Position numbers and translations under genes: made by a program | Origin: Vicingaceae bacterium | GTDB lineage: Bacteria > Bacteroidota > Bacteroidia > Flavobacteriales_E > Vicingaceae | Direction: 5' to 3' | Length of the DNA stretch: 64,000 nucleotides | Assembly (NCBI GenBank): GCA_037969435.1 | Contig: JBBKXK010000014.1 | Coordinates: 3,526 to 67,525, forward strand | Notes under the pieces: generated by a model | The model's input: the letters and a program-made list of their open reading frames with translations, nothing else | Databases searched by the model: none | Told to the model about the DNA's origin: nothing | Shown: one piece after another, positions 12,200 to 30,076 of the stretch | How positions within the stretch are numbered: position 1 is the stretch's first letter | Layout of the letters: the number at the start of each line of letters is the position of its first letter

Positions 12200-12319
12200 T
12201 CAATAGAGGTAAAACTTTTCCCATTGTTCAGGCTCAGTTATTGGTGTTGGCATTTCCTCTTCTTTTTTTGAACAACTAAAAGCATGTATAACAAGAAATA
12301 ATATGATTAACCTTTTCAT
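12200..12319 (-). CDS. Candidate 39-aa lipoprotein (below ORF-track cutoff)
   Basis: My translation is MKRLIILFLVIHAFSCSKKEEEMPTPITEPEQWEKFYLY*. Lipobox-like 'AFSC'. Same strand as the cyclase gene, 72 nt downstream of it and upstream of the 12141-12169 hairpin. Confidence 0.4.
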   Translation of the reverse strand: MKRLIILFLVIHAFSCSKKEEEMPTPITEPEQWEKFYLY

Positions 12320-12391
12320 TATTTTTTAGCTTAAATAACTTTTATCAAAATACGGGAATTTTTTTTTCGAAGTTTCAAATAAGATGTATTA

Positions 12392-15300
12392 CTAGTACCC
12401 TTTCAATCTTTCCTTGATTTCGTTTAATCGGGCTATCTTGTTTTCTCTCCTTAAACTAATTGCCGTTTCAGTAAAATAGGTATGTGCTTCTAAAAATTTA
12501 ATTTGGAGTTCGTCCCATTGTTGATCTGTTTGCACCATGTCACGTTCCATTAATTCTCGTTTCAACTTATCTGCAATTAAATGAAACTCATCACCACCCA
12601 AATAATCTAAATCAGCATCACAAATTATTTGCTCTAAATGGTTCGTTGGTTTTTGAGGTACTTTTGTAGCTTGTATCAAGCTACAAATTTTATCTATTTG
12701 ATCTTCTGTATATCCAAACCTTGGTAATACTTCTCTAGCTAACGCTGCTCCAATGTCTTCGTTTTTGGAGTATTGATGTACAAAACCAGCATCATGGTAT
12801 AGCGCAGCTGTTTTTAATAAGAAGATATCATCACCTTCAATTCCTTCCATTAAAGCTAAACGCTCAACTGCCGCACAAACATCAGTAGTGTGTCTTAAAT
12901 CGTGATAATGTAGATTAGTAGGTAATTCCTTTTTTAATCGTTTTACGATGTATTTTTCTGCCTTACGGTAATTTATTCCACTATAAATATGTAAATCAAC
13001 ATACTTTCTAAATAGTTTGTTTGGTTTAATTCCTTCCCCTTTTTGCGATAACTCTGGTTTAATGGAATGGACAAAGTACATATCAATGTTCCCTTTGTTT
13101 TTTGCTTTTATTTTTCCGCGATACTCACAAGTAAAAAACTCTTTAACTAATTCATAAGTTGTTCCTGATATATTTACTTTACCAACATCTCCAGCAGCTT
13201 CAATTCTACTTGCAATGTTTACACTATCTCCCCAAATATCGTAAGCAAATCTTTTTATCCCAACAACCCCTGCAATCACACTCCCCGTATGTATTCCTAT
13301 TCTTAAGCCCCATCCTGTTTTTCCTTCTTGTCCTTTTAGTTTATGATAATGTGTCATAAATCGCTGAATTTCTAATCCAGCCAAAACAATATCAATCGGG
13401 TTACTTTTATTTCTAAGTGGAATTCCCCCTGCACACATATAGGCATCTCCAATAGTTTTAATTTTTTCTATATCGTGTTTTTCAATAATCTCATCAAACT
13501 TTATAAAGTAATTATCTAACTCAGCCACTAATTCTTGTGGATCAATGGTTTCTGCGATTTTGGTAAAACTTTTAAAATCGGTAAACATAATAGATGTCAT
13601 TCTATACTGACGCGCTGTTGCTTTTCCTTTAGATTTTAATTCCTCTGCTGTTTCATAAGGCAATATGTTTAACAGCAATTTTTCTGCTTTTTCTTTTTCA
13701 ACTTCTAATAATTCTTTTTGTTTAATCACCTCATAAGTTCTTTCCCTAACCTGTACCTCTAATAATTCTTTTTGTGATTGTACTTGGTTAATTCTATACC
13801 TAATTATTCCATAAATCATTAATAAAGGAATAAAAATGTAAAAAATGATAATAAACCATAAAGTTCGCCAAAAAGGAGGTTCTACTATTACTCTAATTTG
13901 AGCCACATCATCACTCCAAATACCATCGCTATTGGAAACTTTTACTTTAAAAACATATTCTCCCGGATCGAGATTAGTGTAATTTGCTCTTCTACTATTA
14001 CCGATATCTACCCAATCCTCATTAAAATTTTCGAGCATATATTTATGCTGATTTTTTAATGGGTATGAATAATGCAAAGCGGCAAACTCAAAAGAAATAA
14101 CATTTTGTTTGTGCTTTAATACAATCTCATCAGATTCTGAAATGTGTTTTTTTAACACTTCATTCTCACCAATTTTTACAGGTTTATTAAATAAATAAAA
14201 GTTAGTTATTAATGGTTTTGGTTTCGATTTATTAATATGGATATCTTCAGGATAAAAAGCATTAAACCCATTGATCCCACCAAAAAACAACTGCCCTGAT
14301 TCGCTTTTGTAATAAGCTCCATTATTAAATTCATTACTTTGAAGTCCATCACTTTCTTCGAAAATTCTAAACTGCTTTATCCTTTTTATAAATTGAGAAA
14401 TCCCTTTGTTTGTGCTCATCCAAAGGTTCCCCTCTTTATCTTCTTCTATACCATAAACAACATTGTTTGATAAACCATCTTTTTCGGTATACCTCCCAAA
14501 TTTTTCAGTTTTAGGATTAAAGGTATTTAACCCTCCTCCGAAAGTTCCCAACCATAAAATACCTTTTTTATCTTCAAAAATTGATAATACTGTGTTGTTA
14601 CTAATGGAGTTAATATTCTCTTGATTTTTTGAATAGACTTTAAATGTAATTTTTCCTTTTGTTTCTATTACTTTACAAAGACCCCCTCCATCAGTACCAA
14701 CCCATATTTGTCCACTTTTACTTTGAGCCATTGACCTTATTATATCACTTGATAATGCTCCTGCAGTATCTGAATTTGTAATAGTTTTAAAACTACGCCT
14801 ATCTTCAGATACAATTACTAATCCTTCTTTTGTACCTAACCATAACCTATTTTTTTTATCCTCTAAAATAACATAGGTTCTGTATTTATTTTGTTTGTTC
14901 TCACTTCCTCCTAAAGGTAATAACTTAGTATCTTCCAAAACATAAACACCCCCATCAGTACCAACCAAAATTTTATTATTATGGTCTTTATAGATAGACA
15001 TGATATTATTCGTCTTTTGCCAATTTTTAATTACTAATTCTGGTATTACATGTTTAACTTTTCCGGAGGATTTATCAAAAATATTTAACCCCTTATCAGT
15101 CCCTACTAAAATAGAAGATGTTTTGCTGTCTTGAAAAATTGACCAAACCATGTTGCTAATAATAGAATTAGTAATGTTTGTCCAATGTTGATAATGCTGA
15201 AAATATTGTTTTTGTTTGTCAAACTTATCAACTCCTGATTGGGTTCCTATCCAAATAATACCTGAATTATCTTCATATATTGTATTAACTTTATTACTAC

Positions 15301-16219
15301 TTAAACTAGTGGATACATTGGCACTATATAAATAATGATCTATGCTAGAAAATGTTTTTAGCTTAAATAATCCTTTCGACTCTGTTCCTACCCAAATTAT
15401 TCCTGATTTATCTTCATAAACACATTTTATAGCATCAGTCCCTATCGATAAGTCTAACTTATGGTTAGAGCTTACCCTGTTAGTAGTTAGGTCATAAAAA
15501 TTAATTCCATTATTTGTAGATACCCATATTGTCCCTTCAGAATCTTGAGTAATATCCCACACCATATTACTTTTTAACAAACTATTATCCTGATAAAACT
15601 GCTCAGTTTCTTCAGTTTCAATATTATACCTAATTATTCCATTACCTTCTGTCGCAATTAATAAGTCTCCTTGTTTTTTTAAATACAATAATTTTCTAAC
15701 TCTTAATTTTTTTATATCAGTACTAAGTAAAAGGGTTATTTTACTAGATTTATGTGTTTTTTTATCAATTTTAATTACTCCTTTTTCTGTGCCAACTAAT
15801 ATATATTTATCCGATTCGGTAATTGCCCAAACATTTTGTTTTTGCTTTATACTATTTTTTGAAGATAATATAGACTTAAACTCAAAAGTGTTCTTGTTAA
15901 AAATGTTTAGTCCGTTTTCAGTGCCTAACCAAATAACACTATCACTTGATTCAAAAATTGTGTGAATAAAATTGTTGGATATAGAAGTGGTGTCTATTAA
16001 ATCATGTGAAAATACCTGAAAATCAAACCCATTATAAAGGTTTAGTCCATCTTGTGTTCCAAACCACATTAGCCCTTTAGAATCTTGATGGATAGAAACT
16101 ACATCACTCTGTGAAAGCCCATCTTTTATCGTAAGGTGCCTGAATTTAATATTACTTTGTTGGGCCATCCCAAAAAAAGCAATGTGTAAAGCGAGAAAAA
16201 GAACAATAATATTTTTCAC
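12392..16219 (-). CDS. Sensor protein: periplasmic two-component-regulator beta-propeller repeats + Y_Y_Y-like domain + TM + coiled coil + class III adenylate/guanylate cyclase + HD domain
   Basis: About 14 repeats of the 'W(I/V)GT..G(L/I)' type. TM 'LWFIIIFYIFIPLLMIYGII'. Cyclase motifs 'IMFTDFKSFT', 'IKTIGDAYMCAGG', 'IGIHTGSVIAGVVG', 'YDIWGDSVNIASRIE'. HD motifs 'HDLRHTTDV', 'ALYHDAGF', 'DADLDYLG'. GTG start 4 nt after the upstream stop. Confidence 0.9.
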   Translation of the reverse strand: MKNIIVLFLALHIAFFGMAQQSNIKFRHLTIKDGLSQSDVVSIHQDSKGLMWFGTQDGLNLYNGFDFQVFSHDLIDTTSISNNFIHTIFESSDSVIWLGTENGLNIFNKNTFEFKSILSSKNSIKQKQNVWAITESDKYILVGTEKGVIKIDKKTHKSSKITLLLSTDIKKLRVRKLLYLKKQGDLLIATEGNGIIRYNIETEETEQFYQDNSLLKSNMVWDITQDSEGTIWVSTNNGINFYDLTTNRVSSNHKLDLSIGTDAIKCVYEDKSGIIWVGTESKGLFKLKTFSSIDHYLYSANVSTSLSSNKVNTIYEDNSGIIWIGTQSGVDKFDKQKQYFQHYQHWTNITNSIISNMVWSIFQDSKTSSILVGTDKGLNIFDKSSGKVKHVIPELVIKNWQKTNNIMSIYKDHNNKILVGTDGGVYVLEDTKLLPLGGSENKQNKYRTYVILEDKKNRLWLGTKEGLVIVSEDRRSFKTITNSDTAGALSSDIIRSMAQSKSGQIWVGTDGGGLCKVIETKGKITFKVYSKNQENINSISNNTVLSIFEDKKGILWLGTFGGGLNTFNPKTEKFGRYTEKDGLSNNVVYGIEEDKEGNLWMSTNKGISQFIKRIKQFRIFEESDGLQSNEFNNGAYYKSESGQLFFGGINGFNAFYPEDIHINKSKPKPLITNFYLFNKPVKIGENEVLKKHISESDEIVLKHKQNVISFEFAALHYSYPLKNQHKYMLENFNEDWVDIGNSRRANYTNLDPGEYVFKVKVSNSDGIWSDDVAQIRVIVEPPFWRTLWFIIIFYIFIPLLMIYGIIRYRINQVQSQKELLEVQVRERTYEVIKQKELLEVEKEKAEKLLLNILPYETAEELKSKGKATARQYRMTSIMFTDFKSFTKIAETIDPQELVAELDNYFIKFDEIIEKHDIEKIKTIGDAYMCAGGIPLRNKSNPIDIVLAGLEIQRFMTHYHKLKGQEGKTGWGLRIGIHTGSVIAGVVGIKRFAYDIWGDSVNIASRIEAAGDVGKVNISGTTYELVKEFFTCEYRGKIKAKNKGNIDMYFVHSIKPELSQKGEGIKPNKLFRKYVDLHIYSGINYRKAEKYIVKRLKKELPTNLHYHDLRHTTDVCAAVERLALMEGIEGDDIFLLKTAALYHDAGFVHQYSKNEDIGAALAREVLPRFGYTEDQIDKICSLIQATKVPQKPTNHLEQIICDADLDYLGGDEFHLIADKLKRELMERDMVQTDQQWDELQIKFLEAHTYFTETAISLRRENKIARLNEIKERLKGY

Positions 16220-16223: not shown

Positions 16224-18527
16224 CTACTTTAATTTAATAACCTTAAACTCTGTCCTTCTGTTTTTTGCTCTTCCGTCTGGGTTATCTTTACCATTTGGTA
16301 ATTCGTTAGGCGCAACTGGTTGAGTTTCTCCATAACCTTTTGCTATGATTTTTGATTTATCTATACCCTTTGACACAACATAATCAACAGCCTTATCAGC
16401 TCTTTTTTGCGACAACTCCATATTAAACTTATCACTTCCTTTAGAATCTGTATGAGAACTTAACTCAACCCCTATATCTTTATTTTTCTTTAAGATTAAA
16501 ACCAATTTATTTAACTCTAATCCTGCTGATTCATTAATTGCATCAGAATCATAATCATATAAAATTTTTGAAATCACAAAATTTTCATTTTCTGCAATTT
16601 TAATTACCTCATCAATTTCATTAATTAAGGTAATAACATTTTTATCAGATGCCAATCGAATGTATCTATATTTACCATCTATTAATCTTTTTGCAGCTTC
16701 TATTACTTTCCCATTTTCATCAACAATAATCATGTTTAAAGTTTCGTCATCCTCAGCAAGCATAAATAAATATTCTTCATCAGGTGATAGTTTATCAAAT
16801 TTAAATTTACCATCTTTATCTGCCTTTGCTTTACCAATAATTTTACCTTCATCATCTACCACCCAAACTTCCATTCCTCCTGAGTAATCTCCTGGTAATT
16901 TTTGATAAATTTGACCAAAAACACTAATAGTAAATAAACTTTCATCCTCTTCTTTTAACATTTCTAATCCATCATAATACGAATATGGTAAGGCTTGAAA
17001 CTTAAACTTACCTTTCCCCATTTTGTTGGCTAATAATACCTTTTGCCCTTTAGAGTTTGTTAAAAATAGTTTCGCATTCTCCAAAAAACTATCATCTGTA
17101 GCATCTAATGCTAATAAATAATTAGCGTCTAAATCCAATTTATCAAATTTAAACTTACCTAGTTCATCTGTTTTAAAAGATTTAAGCACATTATCATTTT
17201 CATCTAACAAATTAATTGTTGCTCCAGAAACACCTAATTTTTCATATTCTAAAAGCCCGGTAATTTCAGTTTTTGGAGTTAAACTATGCCATTTAAAACT
17301 ATAGATATCATCACTTCCAACTCCACCTTCTCTATCTGATGAAAAATATCCATTTTCATCATCTCTATAAAAAATACCAAAATCATCTTTGGATGAATTT
17401 AAAGGTGTTTTTAAATTTTCTGGTTTCGTCCATTTATTACTTTCTTTAACTTCAAAAACATCTAATCCCCCATATCCAGAAAGGCCGTTAGACGAAAAAT
17501 ATAAAATTCCTTTCCTAAAATATGGGAAAACTTCATCCTCAGGGGTGTTTACTTCTTTACCCAAATTAACTGGCTTGCCCCAACTTTCTCCCTCCTTATT
17601 AGAAACATAAATATCCATTCCTCCCTGTCCTCCAGGCATGTCAGAAGCAAAAAATAATTTTTTTCCATCTTCAGATATCCAAGGATGGGCTACAGAATAT
17701 TCTTGGCTATTATATGGAAATGGAGTAATATTCTTCCACTTATTACCATCTAATGTTGCAACATAAATTTTTAGTTTATTAGTGAAATTTTTACCCAACT
17801 CTTTTTTATCTACCCGGGTAAAATAAATGGTTTTTTTATCCGCAGATATTGAAACAGGTCCATCATGATAAATAGAGTTTAATTGATTAGAGAAACGTTT
17901 CGCTTTTTCATACTGCTTATCTTCTTTAGCATAAAAAATAGAAAGATAGGGCTTATTAGACATCCCATAATTATTCTCATTTACTAAATCTAAACCTCTT
18001 TCCGATACAAAAACTAACCCATCTTCATAAACCAACGGACAAAAATCAGAGTTTTTAGAGTTAATATTTTCAACTATAGTTACTTCAAAAGCTTTTTCTT
18101 CTGACTCCCACTCTTTAATATCTGCACAGGATTGTACCATAAGCTTTCCTATAAAACTAGTTGGATTTTTAGCTACAAATTTTTCAAACTGAACTTTTGC
18201 TTCTTTTACTTTATTATTATTTTTTAAAGTTTGTCCGTAATATAAATAATTGGTGCTTTCTTCAGGACTTATTTCAACTGCCTTAGCAAAATATGTTTCA
18301 GCACTTTGGTAATCTTTAATTTTACGGTAAGAGAGTGCAATTTTTTGATTAGCTTCTTTGTTGTTGGTTTCTTTTTTTAATACTTTTTGATAATATGTTA
18401 TCGCATCAATATATTTACCCTCTTCAAAATATTTATTTGCCTTATTTAATTGGGCAAAAGAAATTTGAACAACTCCAACTATAATAGCAAATGTTAACCC
18501 TATCTTTTTTATAATGTATTTCGTCAT
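16224..18527 (-). CDS. TPR + PD40/TolB-like beta-propeller + OmpA C-terminal peptidoglycan-binding protein
   Basis: N-terminal TPR units ('YFEEGKYIDAITYYQKVL'). PD40-like 'ISADKKTIYFTR' and 'ISEDGKKLFFASD'. OmpA_C 'ILYDYDSDAI...ELSSHTDSKGS...NMELSQKRADKAVDY...GYGETQP...NRRTEFKVI'. Confidence 0.85.
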   Translation of the reverse strand: MTKYIIKKIGLTFAIIVGVVQISFAQLNKANKYFEEGKYIDAITYYQKVLKKETNNKEANQKIALSYRKIKDYQSAETYFAKAVEISPEESTNYLYYGQTLKNNNKVKEAKVQFEKFVAKNPTSFIGKLMVQSCADIKEWESEEKAFEVTIVENINSKNSDFCPLVYEDGLVFVSERGLDLVNENNYGMSNKPYLSIFYAKEDKQYEKAKRFSNQLNSIYHDGPVSISADKKTIYFTRVDKKELGKNFTNKLKIYVATLDGNKWKNITPFPYNSQEYSVAHPWISEDGKKLFFASDMPGGQGGMDIYVSNKEGESWGKPVNLGKEVNTPEDEVFPYFRKGILYFSSNGLSGYGGLDVFEVKESNKWTKPENLKTPLNSSKDDFGIFYRDDENGYFSSDREGGVGSDDIYSFKWHSLTPKTEITGLLEYEKLGVSGATINLLDENDNVLKSFKTDELGKFKFDKLDLDANYLLALDATDDSFLENAKLFLTNSKGQKVLLANKMGKGKFKFQALPYSYYDGLEMLKEEDESLFTISVFGQIYQKLPGDYSGGMEVWVVDDEGKIIGKAKADKDGKFKFDKLSPDEEYLFMLAEDDETLNMIIVDENGKVIEAAKRLIDGKYRYIRLASDKNVITLINEIDEVIKIAENENFVISKILYDYDSDAINESAGLELNKLVLILKKNKDIGVELSSHTDSKGSDKFNMELSQKRADKAVDYVVSKGIDKSKIIAKGYGETQPVAPNELPNGKDNPDGRAKNRRTEFKVIKLK

Positions 18528-20204: not shown

Positions 20205-20211
20205 AAATATG

Positions 20212-23044: not shown

Positions 23045-26000
23045 TTATTTATTTTTTAATAATTCAACCTCTTTCTTTAATTCCTCAATCATCTTTTGTT
23101 GTTCTTTAATTGCATTAATAAGCATGTAAGTCATAGCTCCATTATCTACACCTAAATATTTTTCAGTACCTAACGACTCACCTGTTTCTTCGTTTGTTGA
23201 TGTATATTCCCATTCGTTTACCATATATGGAGCTATTTTTCTAAGTTCTTGTGCAATTATACCAACACCTGTTTCATTAGGCATACCTGCCTTACCATTA
23301 TAAGTAAACCAAACTGGATTTATTTTTAAGACATCATTTAAACCTCCCTGGAAAGGTTTTATGTCTTTTTTTAGACGAGCATCAGAAGCAACAGTCCATA
23401 CATTCGAAGTTGGTTTTGCAGCACTATTTGTATTTAAAGTTAATTTATATGCTGGTGCAACGTCATAATATAAAGCAGTGTTTCCATTATTTGCAACCAT
23501 AAAATTTGTGCCCCCATTAAGTTGTGCTCTAAAAATCGGATTAGTTCCTGTCTCATTTACCATTAATTTAGTTCCTCCTGCAGTAGCACCAATACCTACA
23601 TCTCCAGCAACAAGTAACCCATTTACTGGTGCAGTTATAGTTCCAGAATAAGTACCCCCAATAACAGCTGCACCTTCAACATCTAATCTGTTAACTGGAT
23701 TAAGAACCCCTATTCCAGTGTTTCCCACTATTGCGTTTTCCATATTCAAAGGGCCTGTTATATATAAACCATAAACATTACCTGAGGTAGTAGATCCGGA
23801 CGCATCTAACCTAAACCCATAAACATCTCCTGTTCCATCATGATCTAAACTATTATAACTTCCATACATATCCCCAGAACCGGAAGACTGTATACTACTA
23901 TATAAACCATACCTAGGTCCATTGCCGCCTGTTTGGATTAAATTTCTATAACCATATACCGTTGAAGATGAAGAAGCTGAAGGAGTCATATAGTTCCACA
24001 TACCAGTCATCCCCCCAGTTCCTGAAGCTATCATTCTATTATAATAGCCATACATTAAAGAACCTCCATTATATTCATTTAATGCTTCTATAGAAGTATA
24101 TATATTACTAGTTGTTGGAGTATGAATGTAAACCTTTGCACTTGCCGAGCTGTTTGAGACTGTTCCTATTCTAAGATTATCTTGTATATGCACATCTCCT
24201 GTATTAGCACCGCCTCCACCAAAAAAACCAGCCCAATTTCCTGTTCCAGCCGTTGACCATCCTCTAACCCCTATATTAGCAGCAGTTCCTGAAATTGCAA
24301 TTCCTTCAACACCTATATTATCCCCAGAAGACCCACCAGAAGCATTAAAAGAGCCTCCTTTATTGTCTCCTGTCCCCAATCCATTTATTGCAATACCGGT
24401 AACTCCTATCTTACTACTTGCTGAGTTAGTTCCTGAAGTTTCTATGTATGCTCCCCTAACATTTGTAGTTGTTCTAACTTCTAATGGAAATGTAGGCGAA
24501 GTTGTTCCTATTCCTACTTGGCCGGCATTACCATTGTATATATCAGTACCATTAACCAACCAAGCGCTACCTAAAGCAAGTGTTGAAGGATCGGTCCAAG
24601 TCATAACTCCTGATGCATTAGCAACAGGTATATATCCATTTACCGCACCTGTTCTCATTCTTATTTGTCCATTTACATCTAATTTTTCTGTTGGCACATT
24701 AGTACCGATACCAACATCTGAATTCCCTTTTACATATAACCCAGAAGCATTACCAACTGCACTAAATATTGTTCTTGCAGATACTGATGTGTTTGAGTAA
24801 ACTGATAATCCATCACCTGCAGTATTTCCTTGCTGAATGTAGGTTGCAAAAGCTGTTGAATTATCTTCAACATGTAGTTTTCTTGTTGGAGTAAAAACCC
24901 CTATACCAACATTACCTGCATTACCATTTCTAATTGCAATTCCATTTGGAATCCAATCACTGTCTGCAAAACTTGACATAGGTACTTGTCTAGTCCCACC
25001 ACCATCAGTAATTTCCAAATTTAGCCCATTAACAGCAAACCCAGTATTATACTCGTTTGATGGGTCAAAATCAGCATCATTTACATTATCAGTAGATGCA
25101 ATAGTAAAATTAGGATATGTTCCTGATACTGTTGTTGCTCCTGAACCAGTAATAGCTACAGTTTGGTCTGGCATTGTATTGGTAATAACGTTACTTACAA
25201 TACTAATTCCTGTGCCAGCTGTATATGTTGGTCCTGATAAACTACTTAAGTTAACTGTTCCACCCCCATTTGAAAGTGTTAAATTTGGAGTTGCAAAAGA
25301 CAATTGTTGAATTTCATTGGTAGATAGTGAATCTCCATCAGCAATACTAAAGGTTACCCCAGTTCCATTTTGTATATCAATGGTTTGGTTATTACCAGAT
25401 TTACCCCCATTAATCAAGTTTTGATTATCCGTATTTGCAGGTACAGTTTGTGCTACCCAATTTATCCCATTCCAGTATAAATAATCTCCTGTTGAAGGAG
25501 TTGTTGCAGATATATTTGCACCTGTTCCTTGTGTAATATTAATTGTATTTCCAGTAATTGATAAATCTTGCAACTCATTTGTACTATCTAAATCTCCTGT
25601 GTTACTAATAACATTTGCTAAAACACTAATTCCTGGTCCTCCTGTTAAACTACCTGCAGTTCCATCTTGTGCTAATATTTGCCATGTTGCACCATCCCAA
25701 ATAAAAGATTGTCCTGTGGTTGAATTATAATAAGCATCGTTTAAATTAGGTGTAGCTGGCGCTGAACTTAATGTTCCCAACCAATTTATTCCAATACCTT
25801 GAGGCCCTTGAGCTCCTGTTGGTCCATTTAAAGATTCTTTAGAATATAGTGCATAAGGTACAGAAAGTAATTGTGATGCCCCTATTGGGTTTCCATCTAC
25901 TTCTATATATAAATAATAAGAACTTGTTCCCCAGCTTATAGTATTAAAAGCTCCACCTAAAAGTGTACCTCCTCCAATTTCTAACGTAAATAATCCAAAT

Positions 26001-26209
26001 GCGTTAGTAGTTACTGCATGCGATTCTTTATAAACATCTCCTCCAGAAGCAGAGCCTTGTCTTACTTCAATAACTACTGAAATTGCTTGAGAAGCTACCG
26101 GATTACCTGATAAATCTCGAGCTACAGCCTGATAATTTATTTTTTCTGGAGTTTGAGCATAAACTCCTAAACATAAAAACATTAGTATTAAAGTAATTTT
26201 TGTTTTCAT
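23045..26209 (-). CDS. Tail-fibre-like giant secreted protein B (1054 aa) with C-terminal Peptidase_S74-type intramolecular chaperone domain
   Basis: Signal peptide, shared N-module, short collagen-like 'GPTGAQGPQGIG', five GIG(T/V/A) shaft motifs. C-terminal 113 aa 'SDARLKKDIKPF...GIIAQELRKIAP...YLGVDNGAMTYMLINAIKEQQKMIEELKKEVELLKNK'. Confidence 0.9.
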   Translation of the reverse strand: MKTKITLILMFLCLGVYAQTPEKINYQAVARDLSGNPVASQAISVVIEVRQGSASGGDVYKESHAVTTNAFGLFTLEIGGGTLLGGAFNTISWGTSSYYLYIEVDGNPIGASQLLSVPYALYSKESLNGPTGAQGPQGIGINWLGTLSSAPATPNLNDAYYNSTTGQSFIWDGATWQILAQDGTAGSLTGGPGISVLANVISNTGDLDSTNELQDLSITGNTINITQGTGANISATTPSTGDYLYWNGINWVAQTVPANTDNQNLINGGKSGNNQTIDIQNGTGVTFSIADGDSLSTNEIQQLSFATPNLTLSNGGGTVNLSSLSGPTYTAGTGISIVSNVITNTMPDQTVAITGSGATTVSGTYPNFTIASTDNVNDADFDPSNEYNTGFAVNGLNLEITDGGGTRQVPMSSFADSDWIPNGIAIRNGNAGNVGIGVFTPTRKLHVEDNSTAFATYIQQGNTAGDGLSVYSNTSVSARTIFSAVGNASGLYVKGNSDVGIGTNVPTEKLDVNGQIRMRTGAVNGYIPVANASGVMTWTDPSTLALGSAWLVNGTDIYNGNAGQVGIGTTSPTFPLEVRTTTNVRGAYIETSGTNSASSKIGVTGIAINGLGTGDNKGGSFNASGGSSGDNIGVEGIAISGTAANIGVRGWSTAGTGNWAGFFGGGGANTGDVHIQDNLRIGTVSNSSASAKVYIHTPTTSNIYTSIEALNEYNGGSLMYGYYNRMIASGTGGMTGMWNYMTPSASSSSTVYGYRNLIQTGGNGPRYGLYSSIQSSGSGDMYGSYNSLDHDGTGDVYGFRLDASGSTTSGNVYGLYITGPLNMENAIVGNTGIGVLNPVNRLDVEGAAVIGGTYSGTITAPVNGLLVAGDVGIGATAGGTKLMVNETGTNPIFRAQLNGGTNFMVANNGNTALYYDVAPAYKLTLNTNSAAKPTSNVWTVASDARLKKDIKPFQGGLNDVLKINPVWFTYNGKAGMPNETGVGIIAQELRKIAPYMVNEWEYTSTNEETGESLGTEKYLGVDNGAMTYMLINAIKEQQKMIEELKKEVELLKNK
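25823..26158 (-). repeat. Direct repeat copy 2 (N-terminal module of fibre B)
   Basis: See the 22636-22971 entry. Same orientation, about 3.2 kb apart. Confidence 0.8.
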
Positions 26210-26222: not shown

Positions 26223-29200
26223 TTAATTAGCGTAAACTAAATGTCCACTAAACCATGTGCCTGCAGAAGATTGTACACTTGTGCCTGCGGGAGCAGAGTT
26301 TACCCTTATATCAATGGTGTCGCCAGCAGCTAATCTCATTGTTGTAACAAATGTAATATTATTTGGTTGTCCTGATGTTAAATATGCTGTTTGCTCTTTG
26401 TTATCAAGTCCATTTTTTCTCAGGGTTACATTTAAAGATCCATTTGATAAACTAACGATAGCCATTACAGATAGATTAAAAGAATAAATACCATTAACAG
26501 GGGCAGTAAACACGCTAGTAGCAGAATTATAATTTGCACCATCATCAAAAAATACAGTGCCAAATTGTAAGGCTCCTAAACTTAATGAAGGTAAGCCAGA
26601 AACATGTGCTTCAAAAGCTACTTGTCTCGTTTTCCAAGTAGCAAAGCCAGAAGCATCAGAGGTTAAAATTTTACCTGCCCCTTCTGTTCCATCAGTTAAT
26701 TTAAAAGTTCCATTTACATCTAGTTTAGCTGAAGGAATACCTGTACCAATACCAATATTACCATTAGGCGCAATTCTCATTGCTTCATTTGATACTCCAA
26801 TTCCAATAGGGGTTGTATGAAACTCAAGATGAGATCCATGGGCGGTACTTCCAAAAGTTTCATCAGCAAAAGCTCTAATACTAACCGCTTCAGATAAATT
26901 AAAAGCATTATCCATACCTATAAACTCTAGTTTACCTAATCTATCTCCATTTTGAACTCCAGCAGGAACTGCTGCTGTTCCTCTAGAACGAATTAAAGCT
27001 AAGCTACTTCCATCGGAAACATTGTTATTAAATGATTGTGCTGCAATAATTGTCTGACCATCTTTAGCTACATGAAGGCTTACAATAGGGCTTGTTGTTC
27101 CTATACCCACATTAACTGAATTAGCTCCTATTCCACCAAGTACCAAACTATTATTAGCACTTACTACAGAATTGGCTCCAATTGCTGTAGCATTAGTTAA
27201 ATTTGCGATTCCTGCATCTGCTGATTTTCCAATAAAAGTATTGTTATTACCCGATGTGAGAGTTATTCCTGCATCTGCTCCAAAACTAGAATTATTGCTT
27301 CCTGTAGAGTTTTGAAGTGATGCTGTACCAAATGCTGAATTTCTGTTTCCAGTAGAATTAAGTCTTAATACTTCATAACCTAATGAACTATTAAAAACTC
27401 CAGTTGTATTATTCTGACTTGCTCTAAATCCAACAGCAGTATTACTGCCTCCGGTATTTAACCTCAATGCTTCTCTACCTATAGCTGTGTTGGTTCCCCC
27501 TGACACATTGGAAAGTAATGCTGCTGATCCTAAAGCAACATTTTCAACACCTGTTGTATTGGAATTTCCTGCATCATGACCAATGAAAGTATTCAAATTA
27601 TTTGTTAAATCATCATTAAGCCCTGCACCTTGTCCAATAAAAACGCTATTTCCAGAATTTATTACTTCAAACCTAGGCCCTATCATTGTAAAGTACTCTG
27701 CTGCAGTATATCCTGTGCTGTTTCCAAGATTAAAATGGATAACATCTTGATCCGGTGCTGCTTCTAAATTAATATATGTGTCTCCATCAGCATCTATAAT
27801 AGAAGTATCATTACTTGAACTAAATGATGGTGTCTGCCAACTAGCATTACCTGAAGCATCAGAGGTTAAAATTTTATTTGCCCCTGCTCCTGTTGGTATT
27901 AATAATCCAACTGGAAATTCAGCCCTACCATCATTTAATAATCTTAAAGCCTGAACATTAGTGGTTGTCCCATTCATTATTGTATTAAATATTATTTCAC
28001 TACCAAATGAGGAGCTTGTAAAGTTTTCAGTAGCTTTAGCATAAATTTGTGGTCCTCCTCCAAATCCAGAAGAATGGTGCCCTGGGAAAGCTATTTGTCC
28101 TATCAGGTCTCCACTAACAATTGCACCTCTATTGGGTGAGGTAAAATTATTTCTTGCTGCTACCAAAAGACCAGGTTGATTAAATCCTTCTGAAATTATC
28201 CCATTACCAACAGTATTGTCATCCATAACATGAAAAGAACTTAGTGGGGGTGCAATATTGTTAATCCCTACTTTACTATCTCCATAAACTATGAAAGGAA
28301 TTTTATTAGTAACACCATTATTATATGCAATACTATAGCCAGAAGTTGCATCAACTGCATTAAGACCTGCTTCAACAATCCAATATTTGTTAGCAACTGT
28401 GTTAGTATGTTTAATCCTAGAAAATCCAGAAGATGTTTCGTGTAACTGTAAAGTTGGAATTGCGGTAGTGGAAGAATTTGCAATATGTAGTTTACCAGAA
28501 GCAGGGCCACCTATACCAACCTTAGTGGCAGTAATGCTCATTTCTCCTGATGTGGCAGAAATAATACTTCCAGTTGTTGTCCCACCATTTTGAAGTTTTA
28601 TACCTGCACTATTACTGCCAGTAGCATTAACATCAATTGTAGCCCCAAAAAAACCTGCTCTTTCAAATAAGGCTATAGTAGTTATGGCTGGATTTCCCCC
28701 TGACACATGAAATTTGTGAGAAGGTAAAGTTCCAACACCTACATTTCCTGTATTAAAATAAATATCTGGTGAGTTACTTTGCCATAAACTCCCACCTAAA
28801 CCTAAAGAATTTGGGTTTGTCCATTTCGCTTGTCCAAAACCATCATTAGCTAAAATCCAATTTGTACTATCCTTATTATTTCCAATTAAATAAAGTGAAT
28901 CTGTTACAAATGTTCCTTGATTAATATTAATAATGTTTCCTGTAGGTGATATATTAAAAATGGAGTCTGAATTATTATAAACAAAATCTTGAGCAACATT
29001 ACTTATAACCCTAGCATATGATGTTATTGTACTATCTGAACTAATGCCAATATGCCCTCCGTTTATATTATTACTTATTCCTAACAACTTTTGAGCTGGA
29101 TCTAATGCGATAATTGCAGTGTCTGTTCCTGATAAAAAAATTGTTCCAATTGTAGCCCCAGGGTTTGTATTAGATATCCCTATTATTGATGCTCCAGGAT

Positions 29201-30017
29201 TATTCCCTGTAAAACTTGCAATTATTGAATCTGAAGAGTTAATCGTTAATTTATGAACAGGTGTAGAAGTACCGACTCCAACATTACCGACAACATAATC
29301 AATACCTTGTGCATTTGTATTCCATAAACCACCACTTGAACTTGGCAAAACAACAAACCCTCCATTAGTTAAAAATATAGTATCATTTGAAATGCTTAAT
29401 GTTTGTAGCTCGTTGGTTGCTGAAGTATCATTATTATTCGCAGAGCCATCTAAACCATTACATATATAATATTGAATATCTCTTTCTAATGGTTGTAATA
29501 TGTTATCATCATTGTCATCCACTCCCATATATATTAGATAACCTCCATTTGGACAATTAATGCCTACAGGTTCTGCTACTGAATCAGCTAAATTTGCATG
29601 TCCATTTGCTCCAGGCATACCGCTTGCAGCAGTTTTTGCATGAAGCGCATAAGGCACAGATAATAATTGAGTGCCTGTCATTACGTCCCCATTTATTGTA
29701 ACTCTTAAATAATATATTCCTAAACTCCAATTTATTCCAGAAAAAGTTCCAAAAACAGGAGTTCCTCCTCCAATCTCAGCGGTAAATAATCCGAATTGAT
29801 TTGTAGATGACACATAAGTTTCACTATAAATAAGTGTGCCCGATGAGGATCCTTGTAAAACATCAAAAACTATATTTACAGGAGTTGTAATCAATGGATT
29901 CCCTGATAAATCTCTAGCAACTGCTTGATAATTTACAAGCTGTGGTGCTTGAGAAAAAGCATTATTGGTTAACAGGAGACTTACTGTTAAAACTAATAGT
30001 GTGAAAATATTCTTCAT
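26223..30017 (-). CDS. Tail-fibre-like giant secreted protein A (1264 aa) with C-terminal gC1q-like domain
   Basis: Signal peptide, diverged copy of the shared N-module, four GxGT shaft motifs, two 'KILTSDASG.A(S/T)W' motifs, an NxAxG repeat block. C-terminal 'VAFEAH...FFDDGANYNSATSVFTAPVNGIYSF...LRKNG...LAAGDTIDIRV...WFSGHLVYAN'. Confidence 0.9.
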   Translation of the reverse strand: MKNIFTLLVLTVSLLLTNNAFSQAPQLVNYQAVARDLSGNPLITTPVNIVFDVLQGSSSGTLIYSETYVSSTNQFGLFTAEIGGGTPVFGTFSGINWSLGIYYLRVTINGDVMTGTQLLSVPYALHAKTAASGMPGANGHANLADSVAEPVGINCPNGGYLIYMGVDDNDDNILQPLERDIQYYICNGLDGSANNNDTSATNELQTLSISNDTIFLTNGGFVVLPSSSGGLWNTNAQGIDYVVGNVGVGTSTPVHKLTINSSDSIIASFTGNNPGASIIGISNTNPGATIGTIFLSGTDTAIIALDPAQKLLGISNNINGGHIGISSDSTITSYARVISNVAQDFVYNNSDSIFNISPTGNIININQGTFVTDSLYLIGNNKDSTNWILANDGFGQAKWTNPNSLGLGGSLWQSNSPDIYFNTGNVGVGTLPSHKFHVSGGNPAITTIALFERAGFFGATIDVNATGSNSAGIKLQNGGTTTGSIISATSGEMSITATKVGIGGPASGKLHIANSSTTAIPTLQLHETSSGFSRIKHTNTVANKYWIVEAGLNAVDATSGYSIAYNNGVTNKIPFIVYGDSKVGINNIAPPLSSFHVMDDNTVGNGIISEGFNQPGLLVAARNNFTSPNRGAIVSGDLIGQIAFPGHHSSGFGGGPQIYAKATENFTSSSFGSEIIFNTIMNGTTTNVQALRLLNDGRAEFPVGLLIPTGAGANKILTSDASGNASWQTPSFSSSNDTSIIDADGDTYINLEAAPDQDVIHFNLGNSTGYTAAEYFTMIGPRFEVINSGNSVFIGQGAGLNDDLTNNLNTFIGHDAGNSNTTGVENVALGSAALLSNVSGGTNTAIGREALRLNTGGSNTAVGFRASQNNTTGVFNSSLGYEVLRLNSTGNRNSAFGTASLQNSTGSNNSSFGADAGITLTSGNNNTFIGKSADAGIANLTNATAIGANSVVSANNSLVLGGIGANSVNVGIGTTSPIVSLHVAKDGQTIIAAQSFNNNVSDGSSLALIRSRGTAAVPAGVQNGDRLGKLEFIGMDNAFNLSEAVSIRAFADETFGSTAHGSHLEFHTTPIGIGVSNEAMRIAPNGNIGIGTGIPSAKLDVNGTFKLTDGTEGAGKILTSDASGFATWKTRQVAFEAHVSGLPSLSLGALQFGTVFFDDGANYNSATSVFTAPVNGIYSFNLSVMAIVSLSNGSLNVTLRKNGLDNKEQTAYLTSGQPNNITFVTTMRLAAGDTIDIRVNSAPAGTSVQSSAGTWFSGHLVYAN

Positions 30018-30045
30018 TTATCGCTTAATTACAAAAGTTAAGCGA

Positions 30046-30076
30046 CAAATTTAAGCATCTTAAAGATGTTAGTCAA
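30046..30076 (-). promoter_or_regulatory. Candidate Bacteroidota sigma-A promoter for the fibre locus (-33 TTG / -7 TAaaTTTG)
   Basis: The minus strand reads cTTGac-N20-TAAATTTG. The -7 box is at 30046-30053, about 29 nt upstream of the ATG at 30017. Confidence 0.4.

What the first reader, a model, noticed from the sequence alone, without database searches (positions are those of the whole stretch)
12200..30076. 17.6-kb tightly packed locus: three tail-fibre-like giant surface proteins, a type-B T9SS cargo/PorP-SprF/OmpA module and a cyclic-nucleotide sensor
Seen in sequence:
- Seven co-directional minus-strand genes have intergenic gaps of 13, 16, 7, 12, 6 and 4 nt.
- One candidate promoter (TTG-N20-TAAATTTG) lies upstream of the first gene.
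- No hairpin terminator appears until 12141-12169. A candidate 39-aa lipoprotein ORF sits in between.
- The three largest products (1264, 1054 and 938 aa) have Sec signal peptides and phage tail-fibre hallmarks: an S74 chaperone, a C1q-like tip, and repeated GIGT..P...L.V shaft motifs.
- No other phage gene is nearby.
- None of the three ends in a recognisable type-A or type-B T9SS sorting domain.

Established knowledge: PorP/SprF-like proteins act with the adjacent type-B-CTD cargo. The SprB/SprF system of Flavobacterium johnsoniae is the paradigm.

Inference: this is a domesticated, trimeric-fibre adhesin/receptor-binding system displayed through a dedicated type-B T9SS shuttle. Its expression or function may be coupled to cAMP/cGMP sensing by the last gene. 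I do not recognise this gene combination as a described system.
Basis: partly seen in the sequence, partly recalled or inferred. Interest (0 to 1): 0.85.

Follow-up and report, generated by a model that had tools for sequence, protein, structure and literature searches.

The report
Surface fibres with separate secretion tag
Three long tail-fibre-like proteins with no export tag sit next to a tiny protein that is little more than a short conserved stub plus a type IX secretion tag, and because this pairing recurs across the phylum Bacteroidota, the stub protein probably carries or docks the fibres on the cell surface.

Summary
Seven co-directional minus-strand genes have gaps of 13, 16, 7, 12, 6 and 4 nt, one Bacteroidetes-type promoter match and a strong distal hairpin.

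The three large proteins are relatives of the Bdellovibrio MAT (mosaic adhesive trimer) chimeric fibres. All share a ~112-aa N-module that matches Bdello_MAT_N, and two have shaft segments matching solved MAT structures. None has a T9SS sorting domain.

The last gene is not a cNMP sensor. It is a periplasmic-sensor adenylate cyclase with an HD domain.

The new point is the 246-aa type-B-CTD protein. Its first ~50 mature residues form an unannotated "mini-domain" family of about 6,700 clusters, always just after a signal peptide and nearly always followed by a T9SS CTD (43 of 51 type A, 4 type B).
- Mini-domain genes lie beside N-module fibre genes in 47 of 80 loci chosen by the fibre.
- The reverse holds in 37 of 49 loci chosen by the mini-domain.
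- None of 109 N-module proteins has a CTD.

Best reading (about 0.5): the mini-domain protein supplies the T9SS signal and anchor in trans. Here that anchor is PorP/SprF plus a PorE-like wall anchor. Binding between the two is inferred, not shown.

The parts
30046..30076 (-). Bacteroidetes-type promoter match TTG-N20-TAAATTTG, 29 nt upstream of the first fibre gene
   Evidence: It is the only full match on this strand between 12000 and 30300. The sequence was read. This is a consensus match only; no transcript data are available.
26223..30017 (-). Fibre 1 (1264 aa). Layout: signal peptide, N-module (residues 22-133, nt 29619-29954), DUF7151, shaft with 4 GIGT-type motifs, and a C1q/TNF-like tip (residues 1148-1261, nt 26235-26576). 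It has no T9SS CTD.
   Evidence: Pfam finds C1q and DUF7151. The N-module HMM scores E = 1.4e-39. Residues 1000-1107 match the Bd2439 MAT structure 8OL4 at E = 8e-14, and also match Bd1334 and Bd2133. An orthologous first fibre with DUF7151 + C1q is present in L213-L215.
23045..26209 (-). Fibre 2 (1054 aa). Layout: signal peptide, N-module (residues 18-129, nt 25823-26158), short collagen-like run, shaft with 4 motifs, and a self-cleaving S74 intramolecular chaperone (residues 942-997, nt 23219-23386; SDxxxK at S942). It has no T9SS CTD.
   Evidence: Pfam Peptidase_S74 scores 46.3 bits. Motifs were counted. NCBIfam Bdello_MAT_N scores 35 bits on the N-module alone. The AF2 model of residues 1-133 is a beta-sandwich with pLDDT 84.7.
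20212..23028 (-). Fibre 3 (938 aa). Layout: signal peptide, N-module (residues 20-130, nt 22639-22971; 90% identical to that of fibre 2), shaft with 5 motifs, and a tip with no recognised family. It has no T9SS CTD.
   Evidence: Pairwise BLAST shows a mosaic of shared segments among the three fibres. Residues 582-667 match Bd1334 structures 8ON4 and 8OML. No Pfam family is found.
19464..20204 (-). Mini-domain / type B CTD protein (246 aa). Layout: signal peptide, conserved ~50-aa mini-domain (residues 22-75, nt 19980-20141), one Cys-rich Ig-like module (residues ~78-150), and a CHU_C type B T9SS sorting domain (residues 160-244, nt 19473-19727). Proposed role: in-trans sorting adaptor or anchor for the fibres.
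   Evidence: CHU_C scores 85.4 bits and TIGR04131 53.3 bits. The mini-domain HMM scores E = 5.8e-21 and this is the only such domain in the window. In the AF2 model the mini-domain has pLDDT below 50 despite its invariant residues, while the other two domains are confident.
18534..19451 (-). PorP/SprF-family outer-membrane protein, the presumed cognate shuttle or anchor for the type B CTD encoded immediately upstream.
   Evidence: PF11751 scores 242.8 bits and TIGR03519 247.8 bits against a cut-off of 90.55. Every type B mini-domain gene whose downstream DNA was available has a porP-like gene directly after it: the window, L001, L003, L100, L107, L193 and L213-L215.
16224..18527 (-). PorE-like protein (767 aa) with TPR, PD40 beta-propeller, carboxypeptidase-regulatory-like and OmpA_C peptidoglycan-binding parts. 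Presumed cell-wall anchor for the PorP complex. It has an SPI-type signal peptide and no lipobox Cys.
   Evidence: Pfam finds OmpA, TPR, PD40 and CarboxypepD_reg. NCBIfam CHU_0125_OmpA scores 449.5 bits and T9SS_PorE 351.6 bits, both below their cut-offs of 620 and 600. It is therefore a PorE paralogue, not the PorE orthologue. It is 69-79% identical in relatives.
12392..16219 (-). Sensor adenylate cyclase (1275 aa). Layout: signal peptide, periplasmic Reg_prop beta-propellers and Y_Y_Y domain (to about residue 780), one transmembrane segment (residues 783-806), class III cyclase domain (869-1051), and HD phosphohydrolase domain (1109-1203).
   Evidence: Pfam scores are Reg_prop 178 bits, Y_Y_Y 66.7, Guanylate_cyc 169.4 and HD 25.1. 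Hydrophobic windows were located. The best PDB relatives are adenylate cyclases AC8, AC9 and AC5 and mycobacterial Cya (E = 1e-40 to 1e-53). The gene keeps this position in L001, L003 and L213-L215 although the downstream flanks differ.
12141..12169 (.). Strong hairpin between the convergent cyclase and M42 peptidase genes; a candidate bidirectional terminator.
   Evidence: It folds at -20.9 kcal/mol, z = -6.4, with 0 of 200 shuffles folding as well. The T-run is weak, so the terminator scan did not call it.
30114..31901 (-). Conserved upstream neighbour: a SiaA-like HAMP + PP2C (SpoIIE) membrane phosphatase. Whether it belongs to the system is uncertain.
   Evidence: PF07228 scores 74.7 bits. 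NCBIfam SiaA scores 223.9 bits, below its cut-off of 700. It lies directly upstream of the fibres in L001, L003, L022, L075 and L213-L215.

Best explanation
The locus encodes a cell-surface fibre array built from two kinds of protein.

The three large proteins are MAT-like trimeric fibres. Each has a Sec signal peptide, a conserved N-terminal beta-sandwich 'N-module', a mosaic shaft, and a variable distal tip (C1q/TNF-like, S74-capped, or unknown). [quoted passage not shown]

That signal is supplied in trans by the small protein encoded next to them. Its N-terminal ~50-residue mini-domain is proposed to bind the shared N-module in the periplasm. Its C-terminal T9SS domain would then take the complex through the translocon and fix it on the surface.

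In most Bacteroidota the small protein has a type A domain, which implies attachment through the PorV/PorU route. In this Vicingaceae-like lineage it has a type B domain. The operon therefore also carries its own PorP/SprF partner and a PorE-like peptidoglycan anchor, which predicts static, wall-anchored fibres.

The last gene adds a periplasmic-sensor adenylate cyclase, so that an envelope or extracellular cue is turned into cAMP alongside fibre production.

Shown: the gene layout, the domain identities, the homology to MAT fibres, the absence of a CTD in the fibres, and the genomic pairing in both directions. Inferred: physical binding of the mini-domain to the N-module, co-export through the T9SS, anchoring, adhesin function, and the role of cAMP.
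For: 1. The fibres are MAT relatives. All 21 N-module sequences hit NCBIfam Bdello_MAT_N (best E = 5.7e-15). Fibre 1 and fibre 3 shafts match solved Bd2439, Bd1334 and Bd2133 structures. The S74 and non-S74 tips mirror the two MAT subfamilies (PMC10769870).

2. The two proteins have complementary features.
- None of 109 N-module proteins has a type A or type B CTD, although 39 unrelated ORFs in the same loci do.
- 43 of 51 mini-domain proteins have a type A CTD and 4 a type B CTD.

3. Linkage, starting from the fibre. 47 of 80 genome loci carry a mini-domain gene, nearly always co-directional and within 100 nt of a fibre gene.

4. Linkage, starting from the mini-domain.
- 3 of 4 proteins picked only for contig length have an N-module gene 8-13 nt downstream.
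- 37 of 49 metagenome loci with at least 600 nt on both sides have one within 350 nt, and 41 of 49 have one somewhere in the locus.

5. One mini-domain gene serves arrays of 2-5 fibres whose N-modules stay conserved while the rest is mosaic. In the window, fibres 2 and 3 are 90% identical in the N-module only.

6. The CTD type and the adjacent shuttle gene co-vary.
- Every type B mini-domain gene with downstream DNA available (all but L037) is followed by porP-like genes.
- Several type A ones (L120, L177, L209) are followed by a PorV gene that passes the curated cut-off, giving the order mini, PorV, fibre.
- At the same chromosomal site L075 has a type A mini-domain gene where the window has a type B one.

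7. The mini-domain is strongly conserved yet predicted unstructured on its own (pLDDT below 50), while the rest of the same protein is confident. This is as expected for a segment that folds on a partner.

8. Static wall-anchored complexes of type B cargo, PorP-like and PorE-like proteins are proposed in the literature (PMC9143113, PMC12618676).

9. The whole block from the SiaA-like gene through fibres, mini-CTD-B, PorP and PorE-like protein to the cyclase is kept in L001, L003 and L213-L215. The machinery genes are 60-83% identical, but the fibres align only in pieces at 31-60%.
Against: - No direct evidence of binding or co-export exists. Only monomer models could be made.
- The mirror-tree test gave r(mini, N-module) = 0.57 but r(CTD, N-module) = 0.67. 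That shows co-inheritance of the cassette, not specific co-evolution of the proposed interface.
- About a quarter of fibre loci and of mini-domain loci with adequate flanks lack the partner nearby.
- Some mini-domain proteins are 450-1350 aa with their own passenger domains, so the mini-domain is not only an adaptor.
- Bdellovibrio MAT fibres are reported on the cell surface (PMC10769870); from my own knowledge, not checked here, Bdellovibrio has no T9SS, so on that premise an N-module does not need a T9SS as such.
- I found no published case of a T9SS substrate carried by a CTD supplied in trans. The library searched is limited.
- Low pLDDT may simply be a modelling failure.
- The single-operon reading rests on short gaps and one promoter match.
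Confidence: 0.5

Rival explanations
1. Dock only. The mini-domain protein is exported by the T9SS on its own and serves as a surface stub. The fibres cross the outer membrane by another, unknown route, as MAT fibres must do in Bdellovibrio, and then bind the stub through the N-module.
For: The gene pairing and feature complementarity are the same as for the best explanation. MAT fibres are found on the Bdellovibrio surface and their N-domain is thought to bind an unidentified surface element (PMC10769870). From my own knowledge, not checked here, Bdellovibrio has no T9SS.
Against: No general route for non-lipoprotein, CTD-less proteins across the Bacteroidota outer membrane is known (my own knowledge). 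The fibres have SPI-type signal peptides, not lipoprotein ones. Tight gene coupling with gaps of 3-30 nt is more typical of complexes that assemble as they are made.
Confidence: 0.2
2. Linked function without a structural complex. The small CTD protein would be a signalling ligand, a maturation factor or a regulator for the fibres. The precedent is PorA, a small T9SS cargo that is a ligand of the PorXY system. In this window it could feed the adjacent periplasmic-sensor cyclase.
For: PorA shows that a small CTD protein can act as a signal (PMC7712824, PMC12152298). A sensor cyclase and a SiaA-like phosphatase flank this locus and stay there in relatives. The mirror-tree test gives no interface-specific signal.
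Against: In most lineages no sensor gene accompanies the pair. The complementarity 'CTD but no passenger' against 'passenger but no CTD' is left unexplained. No NCBIfam family other than CTD models matched the mini-domain proteins.
Confidence: 0.12
3. The fibres are not displayed on the producer's surface. They would be periplasmic or packed into outer-membrane vesicles, as MATs were first found in a Bdellovibrio vesicle, and the T9SS genes next to them would be an unrelated adhesin module.
For: MATs were identified in vesicle preparations (PMC10769870). The fibres lack any recognised outer-membrane sorting signal.
Against: The pairing with the mini-domain gene is specific. It holds with either CTD type and in both directions, far beyond what neighbouring but unrelated genes would show. 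A second CTD-B/PorP pair in the same window has no mini-domain and no fibres.
Confidence: 0.08
4. The locus is a prophage, tailocin or contractile-injection remnant whose tail fibres happen to lie beside T9SS genes.
For: S74 chaperone, C1q-like tip and shaft repeats are tail-fibre hallmarks. Five IMG/VR contigs with real phage genes (tail protein, endolysin, DnaB-like helicase) carry an N-module gene, and three of them have the mini-domain gene upstream.
Against: - No phage structural gene lies in the flanks.
- The N-module has no match in 50,697 isolated phage genomes.
- At least 593 genome hits were found, and the best 80 are all Bacteroidota chromosomal contigs.
- All the fibres have signal peptides.
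- The chromosomal position is stable across related genomes.
- Structure search of the N-module against viral models gives only generic Ig-like matches with TM at most 0.45.
Confidence: 0.03

Closest known systems
Bdellovibrio bacteriovorus MAT (mosaic adhesive trimer) chimeric fibres (Caulton et al. 2024, PMC10769870; NCBIfam NF053851)
   Same: - A signal peptide is followed at once by a conserved beta-rich N-domain of about 110-130 aa.
- The shafts are long and mosaic, with segments that match solved MAT structures.
- There are several paralogues with swapped tips.
- Tips are either S74-capped or not, including TNF/C1q-like tips.
   Different: - The host is Bacteroidota, not a predator.
- Scores to the Bdellovibrio N-domain model are below its curated cut-off and cover only about the first half of the model.
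- The genes are clustered in one operon with T9SS parts.
- A conserved neighbouring candidate partner, the mini-domain CTD protein, is present. In Bdellovibrio the partner of the N-domain is unknown.
Type B CTD cargo / PorP-SprF-like / PorE-like operons: F. johnsoniae Fjoh_3952-3951-3950 and P. gingivalis PG1035-PorP-PorE (PMC12618676, PMC9143113)
   Same: The gene order is CHU_C-type cargo, then a porP/sprF-like gene directly downstream, then a PorE-like TPR / propeller / OmpA protein. The described systems are proposed to form static, wall-anchored complexes.
   Different: Here the 'cargo' is only a 50-aa mini-domain plus one Ig-like module. It is preceded by three large CTD-less fibres and followed by a sensor cyclase. 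The PorE-like protein scores below the PorE and CHU_0125 cut-offs and is not a lipoprotein.
Phage tail fibres and tailspikes with a C-terminal S74 intramolecular chaperone (endosialidase, T5 pb1 type)
   Same: Peptidase_S74 domain with an SDxxxK motif, trimeric fibre-like repeats, and a distal receptor-binding tip.
   Different: The fibres have Sec signal peptides, a chromosomal conserved context and no virion genes. The N-terminal module is not a recognisable phage attachment domain.
Signal-in-trans ('hitchhiker') export, as in the Tat pathway (for example PaoABC, PMC4273604)
   Same: The logic is the same: a folded partner without a signal rides on a subunit that has one.
   Different: It is a different machine and membrane, and its signal is N-terminal. 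For the T9SS no such case turned up in the literature searched. Here it is only inferred.
PorA, the small T9SS cargo that signals to PorXY in P. gingivalis (PMC7712824, PMC12152298)
   Same: It is a very small passenger fused to a T9SS CTD whose role lies in interaction rather than catalysis.
   Different: No sequence relation was detected, since only CTD models matched the mini-domain proteins. PorA is not reported next to fibre genes.
Periplasmic Reg_prop / Y_Y_Y sensors of Bacteroidota hybrid two-component systems, and class III adenylate cyclases
   Same: The sensor architecture is a double beta-propeller, a Y_Y_Y domain and one transmembrane helix. The catalytic domain is closest to adenylate cyclases.
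   Different: The output is a cyclase plus an HD domain instead of a kinase, receiver and AraC module. Its position as the last gene of a fibre/T9SS operon is conserved only in this lineage.

Membership tests
MAT (mosaic adhesive trimer) fibre family | A conserved beta-rich N-domain of about 130 aa immediately after the signal peptide | tested here: met
   The N-module follows the signal peptide in all three fibres. All 21 of 21 family members hit Bdello_MAT_N, with best E = 5.7e-15. The AF2 model is a beta-sandwich with pLDDT 84.7.
MAT (mosaic adhesive trimer) fibre family | Score above the curated NCBIfam NF053851 cut-off (60 bits) | tested here: not met
   Full-length proteins score 23.7-28.2 bits and the isolated N-module 35 bits. 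Only model positions ~3-80 of 162 are matched. These are relatives of the Bdellovibrio subfamily, not members of it.
MAT (mosaic adhesive trimer) fibre family | Chimeric shaft homologous to solved MAT fibres, with swappable S74 or non-S74 tips | tested here: met
   Fibre 1 residues 1000-1107 match Bd2439 (8OL4) at E = 8e-14, plus Bd1334 and Bd2133. Fibre 3 residues 582-667 match Bd1334. Segments are shared in mosaic fashion. Tips are S74, C1q and unknown.
MAT (mosaic adhesive trimer) fibre family | Trimeric fibre on the cell surface that binds target-cell epitopes | not testable with these tools
   This needs multimer modelling, EM and binding assays.
T9SS type B cargo with cognate PorP/SprF shuttle | C-terminal type B sorting domain (TIGR04131 / PF13585) above cut-off | tested here: met
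   In the 246-aa protein TIGR04131 scores 53.3 bits (cut-off 35) and CHU_C 85.4 bits (cut-off 27). The AF2 model of this domain is confident.
T9SS type B cargo with cognate PorP/SprF shuttle | A porP/sprF-like gene directly downstream of the cargo gene | tested here: met
   The gap is 12 nt. TIGR03519 scores 247.8 bits against a cut-off of 90.55. The arrangement recurs in L001, L003, L100, L107, L193 and L213-L215.
T9SS type B cargo with cognate PorP/SprF shuttle | Secretion depends on the T9SS and on the cognate PorP/SprF protein | not testable with these tools
   This needs genetics and secretion assays.
T9SS substrates (applied to the three fibres themselves) | A C-terminal type A, B or C sorting domain | tested here: not met
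   No CTD model hits the fibres at E <= 0.01. None of 109 N-module proteins has one. The fibres are not canonical T9SS substrates.
PorE (T9SS component) orthologue | Four-part architecture of TPR, beta-propeller, carboxypeptidase-regulatory-like and OmpA_C domains | tested here: met
   Pfam finds TPR, PD40, CarboxypepD_reg and OmpA. The architecture is as described in PMC9143113 and PMC12773672.
PorE (T9SS component) orthologue | Score above the NCBIfam T9SS_PorE (600 bits) or CHU_0125 (620 bits) cut-off, and a lipoprotein signal | tested here: not met
   The scores are 351.6 and 449.5 bits. The N-terminus has no Cys lipobox. I file it as a PorE-like paralogue.
Prophage / tailocin tail-fibre gene | Embedded among capsid, tail, sheath or baseplate genes, and related to fibres in phage genomes | tested here: not met
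   The flanks are pyruvate kinase, an M42 peptidase, a PP2C phosphatase, a two-component system and ferritin. No phage-genome match exists for the N-module. Only five IMG/VR contigs carry it.
Class III adenylate cyclase | Guanylate_cyc catalytic domain above cut-off, closest to adenylate cyclases | tested here: met
   PF00211 scores 169.4 bits. The best PDB relatives are AC8, AC9, AC5 and mycobacterial adenylate cyclases. The Lys/Asp substrate-specifying pattern was judged by eye only.
   No such domain was found. The domains are Reg_prop, Y_Y_Y, cyclase and HD.

The most novel reading that the evidence does not exclude
The type IX secretion system can export and anchor large trimeric proteins that have no sorting domain of their own, by using a dedicated mini-protein that supplies the CTD in trans. 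This split-signal cassette (mini-domain CTD protein plus MAT-like fibres) would be a widespread, so far unnamed surface-fibre system of Bacteroidota. The mini-domain would be the first identified partner class for the conserved N-domain of MAT-type fibres.
Probability: 0.45. Interest if true: 0.85.

Novelty: new variant of a known kind. Interest (0 to 1): 0.75.

Why it matters
T9SS substrates are defined by a C-terminal sorting domain. A cargo class that borrows this domain from a partner would widen what counts as the T9SS secretome. It would also explain how proteins whose C-terminus must stay free or is self-cleaved (receptor-binding tips, S74 chaperones) can still use this system.

It would give a concrete, testable candidate for the unknown surface partner of the MAT fibre N-domain, a question left open in the Bdellovibrio work.

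The cassette is common: about 6,700 mini-domain clusters at 50% identity and hundreds of Bacteroidota genomes. It is modular and has fast-changing tips, so it is likely to matter for adhesion to particles, hosts or other microbes.

The A-type, B-type and PorV-linked versions offer natural experiments on how the CTD type sets the final location of a surface structure.

Tried and rejected
1. A word-index protein search with the N-module returned only short fragments: 36 candidates, all under 200 aa. It gave no architecture information.

I replaced it with a degenerate DNA pattern for LTQGFQQP. That pattern samples only the 'TQGFQQP' subtype.

3. The mirror-tree test for co-evolution was inconclusive. 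The CTD correlates with the N-module at least as well as the mini-domain does.

4. Structure searches of the N-module model against the PDB and viral models gave only generic Ig-like sandwiches: no PDB match at E <= 0.001, a single BFVD match at 3.6e-4, and TM at most 0.45. They gave no functional lead.

5. No natural fusion of a mini-domain and an N-module was found among the 275 proteins held.

6. Multimer modelling was not available.

7. The exact look-up of the window's own small protein found no contig on record, so the source organism is inferred only from the closest named relatives, Vicingus and Vicingaceae.

8. The 39-aa lipoprotein-like ORF is dropped as part of the system, because it has no counterpart in L213-L215.

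9. The association of fibre cassettes with Reg_prop sensors outside this lineage (10 of 80 loci) is not claimed. Such sensors are abundant in the phylum and I could not compute a proper background.

10. In L071 a fibre gene follows a 2008-aa CHU_C protein, PorP and PorE without a mini-domain. I treat this as possibly coincidental.

Full report
WHAT IS THERE

The region holds seven co-directional minus-strand genes:
- 26223-30017 (1264 aa)
- 23045-26209 (1054 aa)
- 20212-23028 (938 aa)
- 19464-20204 (246 aa)
- 18534-19451 (305 aa)
- 16224-18527 (767 aa)
- 12392-16219 (1275 aa)

The gaps between them are 13, 16, 7, 12, 6 and 4 nt. The only full Bacteroidetes-type promoter match (TTG-N20-TAAATTTG) on that strand between 12000 and 30300 lies at 30076-30046, 29 nt before the first ATG. 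Terminator-like sites inside the locus are at chance level. A strong hairpin (-20.9 kcal/mol, z = -6.4) sits at 12141-12169, between the last gene and the convergent M42 peptidase gene. The 39-aa lipoprotein-like ORF at 12200-12319 is real as an ORF but has no counterpart in three close relatives. The single-operon reading is therefore plausible but rests on sequence features only.

THE FIBRES

Pfam gives C1q and DUF7151 for the 1264-aa protein, Peptidase_S74 for the 1054-aa protein, and nothing for the 938-aa protein. The S74 domain carries the SDxxxK motif at S942. The GIGT..P...L.V-type shaft motif occurs 4, 4 and 5 times, against about 0.002 expected.

The three proteins share a ~112-residue N-module directly after the signal peptide. 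It is 90% identical between fibres 2 and 3 and about 52% identical to fibre 1. The proteins otherwise share segments in a mosaic pattern.

NCBIfam gives one weak hit for each fibre, Bdello_MAT_N. When 21 N-module sequences were scanned, all 21 hit that model, with best E = 5.7e-15. A PDB sequence search then matched fibre 1 residues 1000-1107 to Bd2439 (8OL4, E = 8e-14), Bd1334 and Bd2133. It matched fibre 3 residues 582-667 to Bd1334. These are the MAT structures of Caulton et al. 2024.

That paper describes 21 MATs. All have a conserved beta-rich ~130-aa domain right after the signal peptide, S74 or non-S74 tips, and an N-domain that 'would presumably tightly bind a surface element' still unidentified.

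The window's fibres are thus Bacteroidota relatives of MAT fibres. They score below the curated cut-off of the Bdellovibrio model, so they are not members of that subfamily. The AF2 model of the N-module is a confident beta-sandwich (pLDDT 84.7) with no specific structural relative in the PDB or in viral models. None of the three fibres has a T9SS sorting domain.

THE T9SS MODULE

The 246-aa protein has a type B CTD, the next gene is a PorP/SprF-family protein, and the 767-aa protein has the TPR / propeller / carboxypeptidase-regulatory-like / OmpA_C architecture of PorE. It scores below the PorE and CHU_0125 cut-offs.

This three-gene arrangement is known. F. johnsoniae has five such operons. 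Fjoh_3952-3951-3950 and P. gingivalis PG1035-PorP-PorE are proposed to form static complexes anchored to the cell wall.

THE LAST GENE

It is not a cyclic-nucleotide sensor. It has a signal peptide, periplasmic Reg_prop propellers and a Y_Y_Y domain, one transmembrane segment at residues 783-806, a class III cyclase domain closest to adenylate cyclases, and an HD domain. It should convert a periplasmic or extracellular input into cAMP. The HD domain may degrade a nucleotide; that is an inference.

THE KEY RESULT

I fetched 80 genome loci through the N-module. A single-sequence search with the non-CTD part of the 246-aa protein hit a ~160-aa ORF next to the fibre gene in 18 loci. After HMM iteration, 47 of the 80 loci had such a gene. 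Nearly all were co-directional and within 100 nt of a fibre gene, usually just upstream.

These small proteins consist of a signal peptide, a ~50-residue conserved 'mini-domain', a short linker and a T9SS sorting domain. The mini-domain motifs are Q..VI.S.G...LS.T.GE...TQGFQQP, or a GVQQPYE variant.
- 43 of 51 carry type A (TIGR04183 / PF18962).
- 4 carry type B: the window, L001, L003 and L037.
- No Pfam or NCBIfam model covers the mini-domain itself.

Conversely, none of 109 N-module proteins in these loci has a type A or type B CTD, although 39 other ORFs there do.

The mini-domain family is large and unnamed. There are 2,889 word-index hits, called only 'T9SS type A sorting domain-containing protein' or 'hypothetical'. 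An exhaustive profile search found 6,738 representative clusters at E <= 1e-3. In the 150 best hits listed the domain begins within about 100 residues of the N-terminus, mostly at residues ~20-25, with a modal protein length near 162 aa.

THE REVERSE TEST

Of four mini-domain proteins chosen only for long contigs, three have an N-module gene 8-13 nt downstream. A metagenome scan for the DNA pattern of LTQGFQQP gave 120 loci, of which 113 contained a mini-domain. Of the 49 mini-domain genes with at least 600 nt on both sides:
- 37 have a co-directional N-module gene within 350 nt (30 downstream, 7 upstream).
- 41 have one somewhere in the locus.

The exceptions are informative.
- In L120, L177 and L209 the order is mini-domain (type A), then PorV, then fibre. 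The PorV genes of L120 and L177 pass the curated T9SS_OM_PorV cut-off; L209's was identified only by phmmer similarity to L120's.
- Type B mini-domain genes are followed by porP-like genes wherever downstream DNA was available (L001, L003, L100, L107, L193, L213-L215).

The cassette therefore tends to carry the shuttle that fits its CTD type.

LINEAGE CONTEXT

The closest named relatives of the small protein are from Vicingus and Vicingaceae, order Flavobacteriales. The following order is kept in L001, L003, L213, L214 and L215, although the downstream flanks differ:
1. YfiR-like protein
2. 297-aa protein
3. SiaA-like HAMP-PP2C phosphatase
4. two or three fibres
5. mini-domain type B CTD protein
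6. PorP
7. PorE-like protein
8. sensor cyclase

The machinery genes are 60-83% identical, whereas the fibres align only in pieces at 31-60%. This is the pattern expected of fast-changing receptor-binding proteins on a stable chassis.

L075 shares the upstream backbone. It has a type A mini-domain gene in front of a fibre, and no PorP or PorE in the DNA available. This is a natural swap of the sorting type at one chromosomal site.

HOW IT MOST LIKELY WORKS

A T9SS signal must be C-terminal. These fibres attach by the N-terminus and use the C-terminus as the tip, or cleave it off through S74. The simplest model is that the mini-domain binds the shared N-module and supplies the CTD in trans. The complex would pass the T9SS translocon and stay fixed by PorP and the PorE-like protein in this lineage, or by the type A route elsewhere.

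Supporting observations:
- One mini-domain gene serves arrays of 2-5 fibres with conserved N-modules.
- In the AF2 model of the 246-aa protein the highly conserved mini-domain is the only low-confidence part (pLDDT below 50), as expected for a segment that folds on a partner.

Against it:
- There is no direct evidence of binding.
- The mirror-tree test shows only co-inheritance.
- About a quarter of loci are unpaired.
- Some mini-domain proteins are large.
- Bdellovibrio displays MATs on its surface (PMC10769870); from my own knowledge, not checked here, it has no T9SS.
- I found no published precedent for a CTD in trans.

I put this model at about 0.5. The rivals are:
- Dock only (fibres exported separately): 0.2.
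- Non-structural partner, such as a PorA-like signal (PMC7712824, PMC12152298): 0.12.
- Non-surface location: 0.08.
- Phage remnant: 0.03.

PHAGE ORIGIN

The N-module has no match in 50,697 isolated phage genomes and occurs in only 5 IMG/VR contigs. Those five do carry phage genes, and three also carry the mini-domain gene. A few phages may therefore move the cassette, but it is overwhelmingly chromosomal.

VERDICT

The parts are all of known kinds: MAT-like fibres, T9SS CTDs, PorP, a PorE-like protein and a class III cyclase. The conserved split between a CTD-only mini-protein and CTD-less fibres appears undescribed and is directly testable. I rate it a new variant of a known kind, with interest 0.75.

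Noticed in passing
window 7205-8980 (minus strand): A second, separate pair: a type B CTD protein (278 aa, 8144-8980; TIGR04131 68.4 bits) followed by a PorP/SprF gene (7205-8143). It has no PorE-like gene, no mini-domain and no fibres. It serves as an internal control showing that not every CTD-B/PorP pair carries the mini-domain.
   Followed up: partly
window 30114-33333 (minus strand): A conserved signalling trio directly upstream of the fibres: a YfiR-like periplasmic protein (32815-33333; TOL_0243 family, 117.8 bits against a cut-off of 125), a 297-aa protein with no family (31919-32812), and a SiaA-like HAMP-PP2C phosphatase (30114-31901). All three keep this position in L001, L003, L022 and L215. 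L075 shows the 297-aa and SiaA-like genes, and L213 and L214 only the SiaA-like gene, before the fetched DNA ends. A link to fibre regulation is possible but untested.
   Followed up: partly
L081-L085 (IMG/VR contigs): Five phage-like contigs, with PHROG hits to tail protein, endolysin, DnaB-like helicase and methyltransferases, carry an N-module gene. In L081, L083 and L085 a mini-domain type A CTD gene lies just upstream. This suggests phages sometimes carry the whole cassette, perhaps as a lysogenic-conversion gene pair.
   Followed up: partly
L120 1739-3403; L177 3269-4932; L209 467-2265; L162: A type A mini-domain gene is immediately followed by a PorV gene, with a fibre gene next in L120, L177 and L209. 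The L120 and L177 genes score 394 and 349 bits on NCBIfam T9SS_OM_PorV against a cut-off of 250. The L209 and L162 genes were identified only by phmmer similarity to L120's, and in L162 no fibre gene was seen. It is unknown whether this is the genome's only porV or a dedicated paralogue.
   Followed up: partly
L091 79-3455; L092: Here the mini-domain gene is preceded by a 943-aa protein with faint YadA_head hits and no N-module. The mini-domain may therefore have alternative partners.
   Followed up: no
L108 299-4901; L123 6341-11055: A type A mini-domain gene is followed by a ~1290-aa protein with SprB-repeat-like N-terminal modules and a weak CHU_C match, instead of an N-module fibre.
   Followed up: no
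window 12200-12319 (minus strand): A 39-aa ORF with a lipoprotein-like signal (…HAFSC) followed by SKKEEE, which resembles a Bacteroidota surface-lipoprotein export motif. L213-L215 give no significant match to it (best tblastn E = 1.0), so it may be spurious or strain-specific.
   Followed up: yes
window 46504-47586 (plus strand): A 360-aa ORF with a type A T9SS CTD by the local HMM (E = 2.7e-11). This is independent evidence that the organism uses a T9SS.
   Followed up: no
window 20000-30000: The fibre genes have a higher G+C content (0.34-0.37) than the flanks (0.29-0.32). This may reflect Gly/Ala/Thr/Ser-rich composition rather than foreign origin.
   Followed up: no
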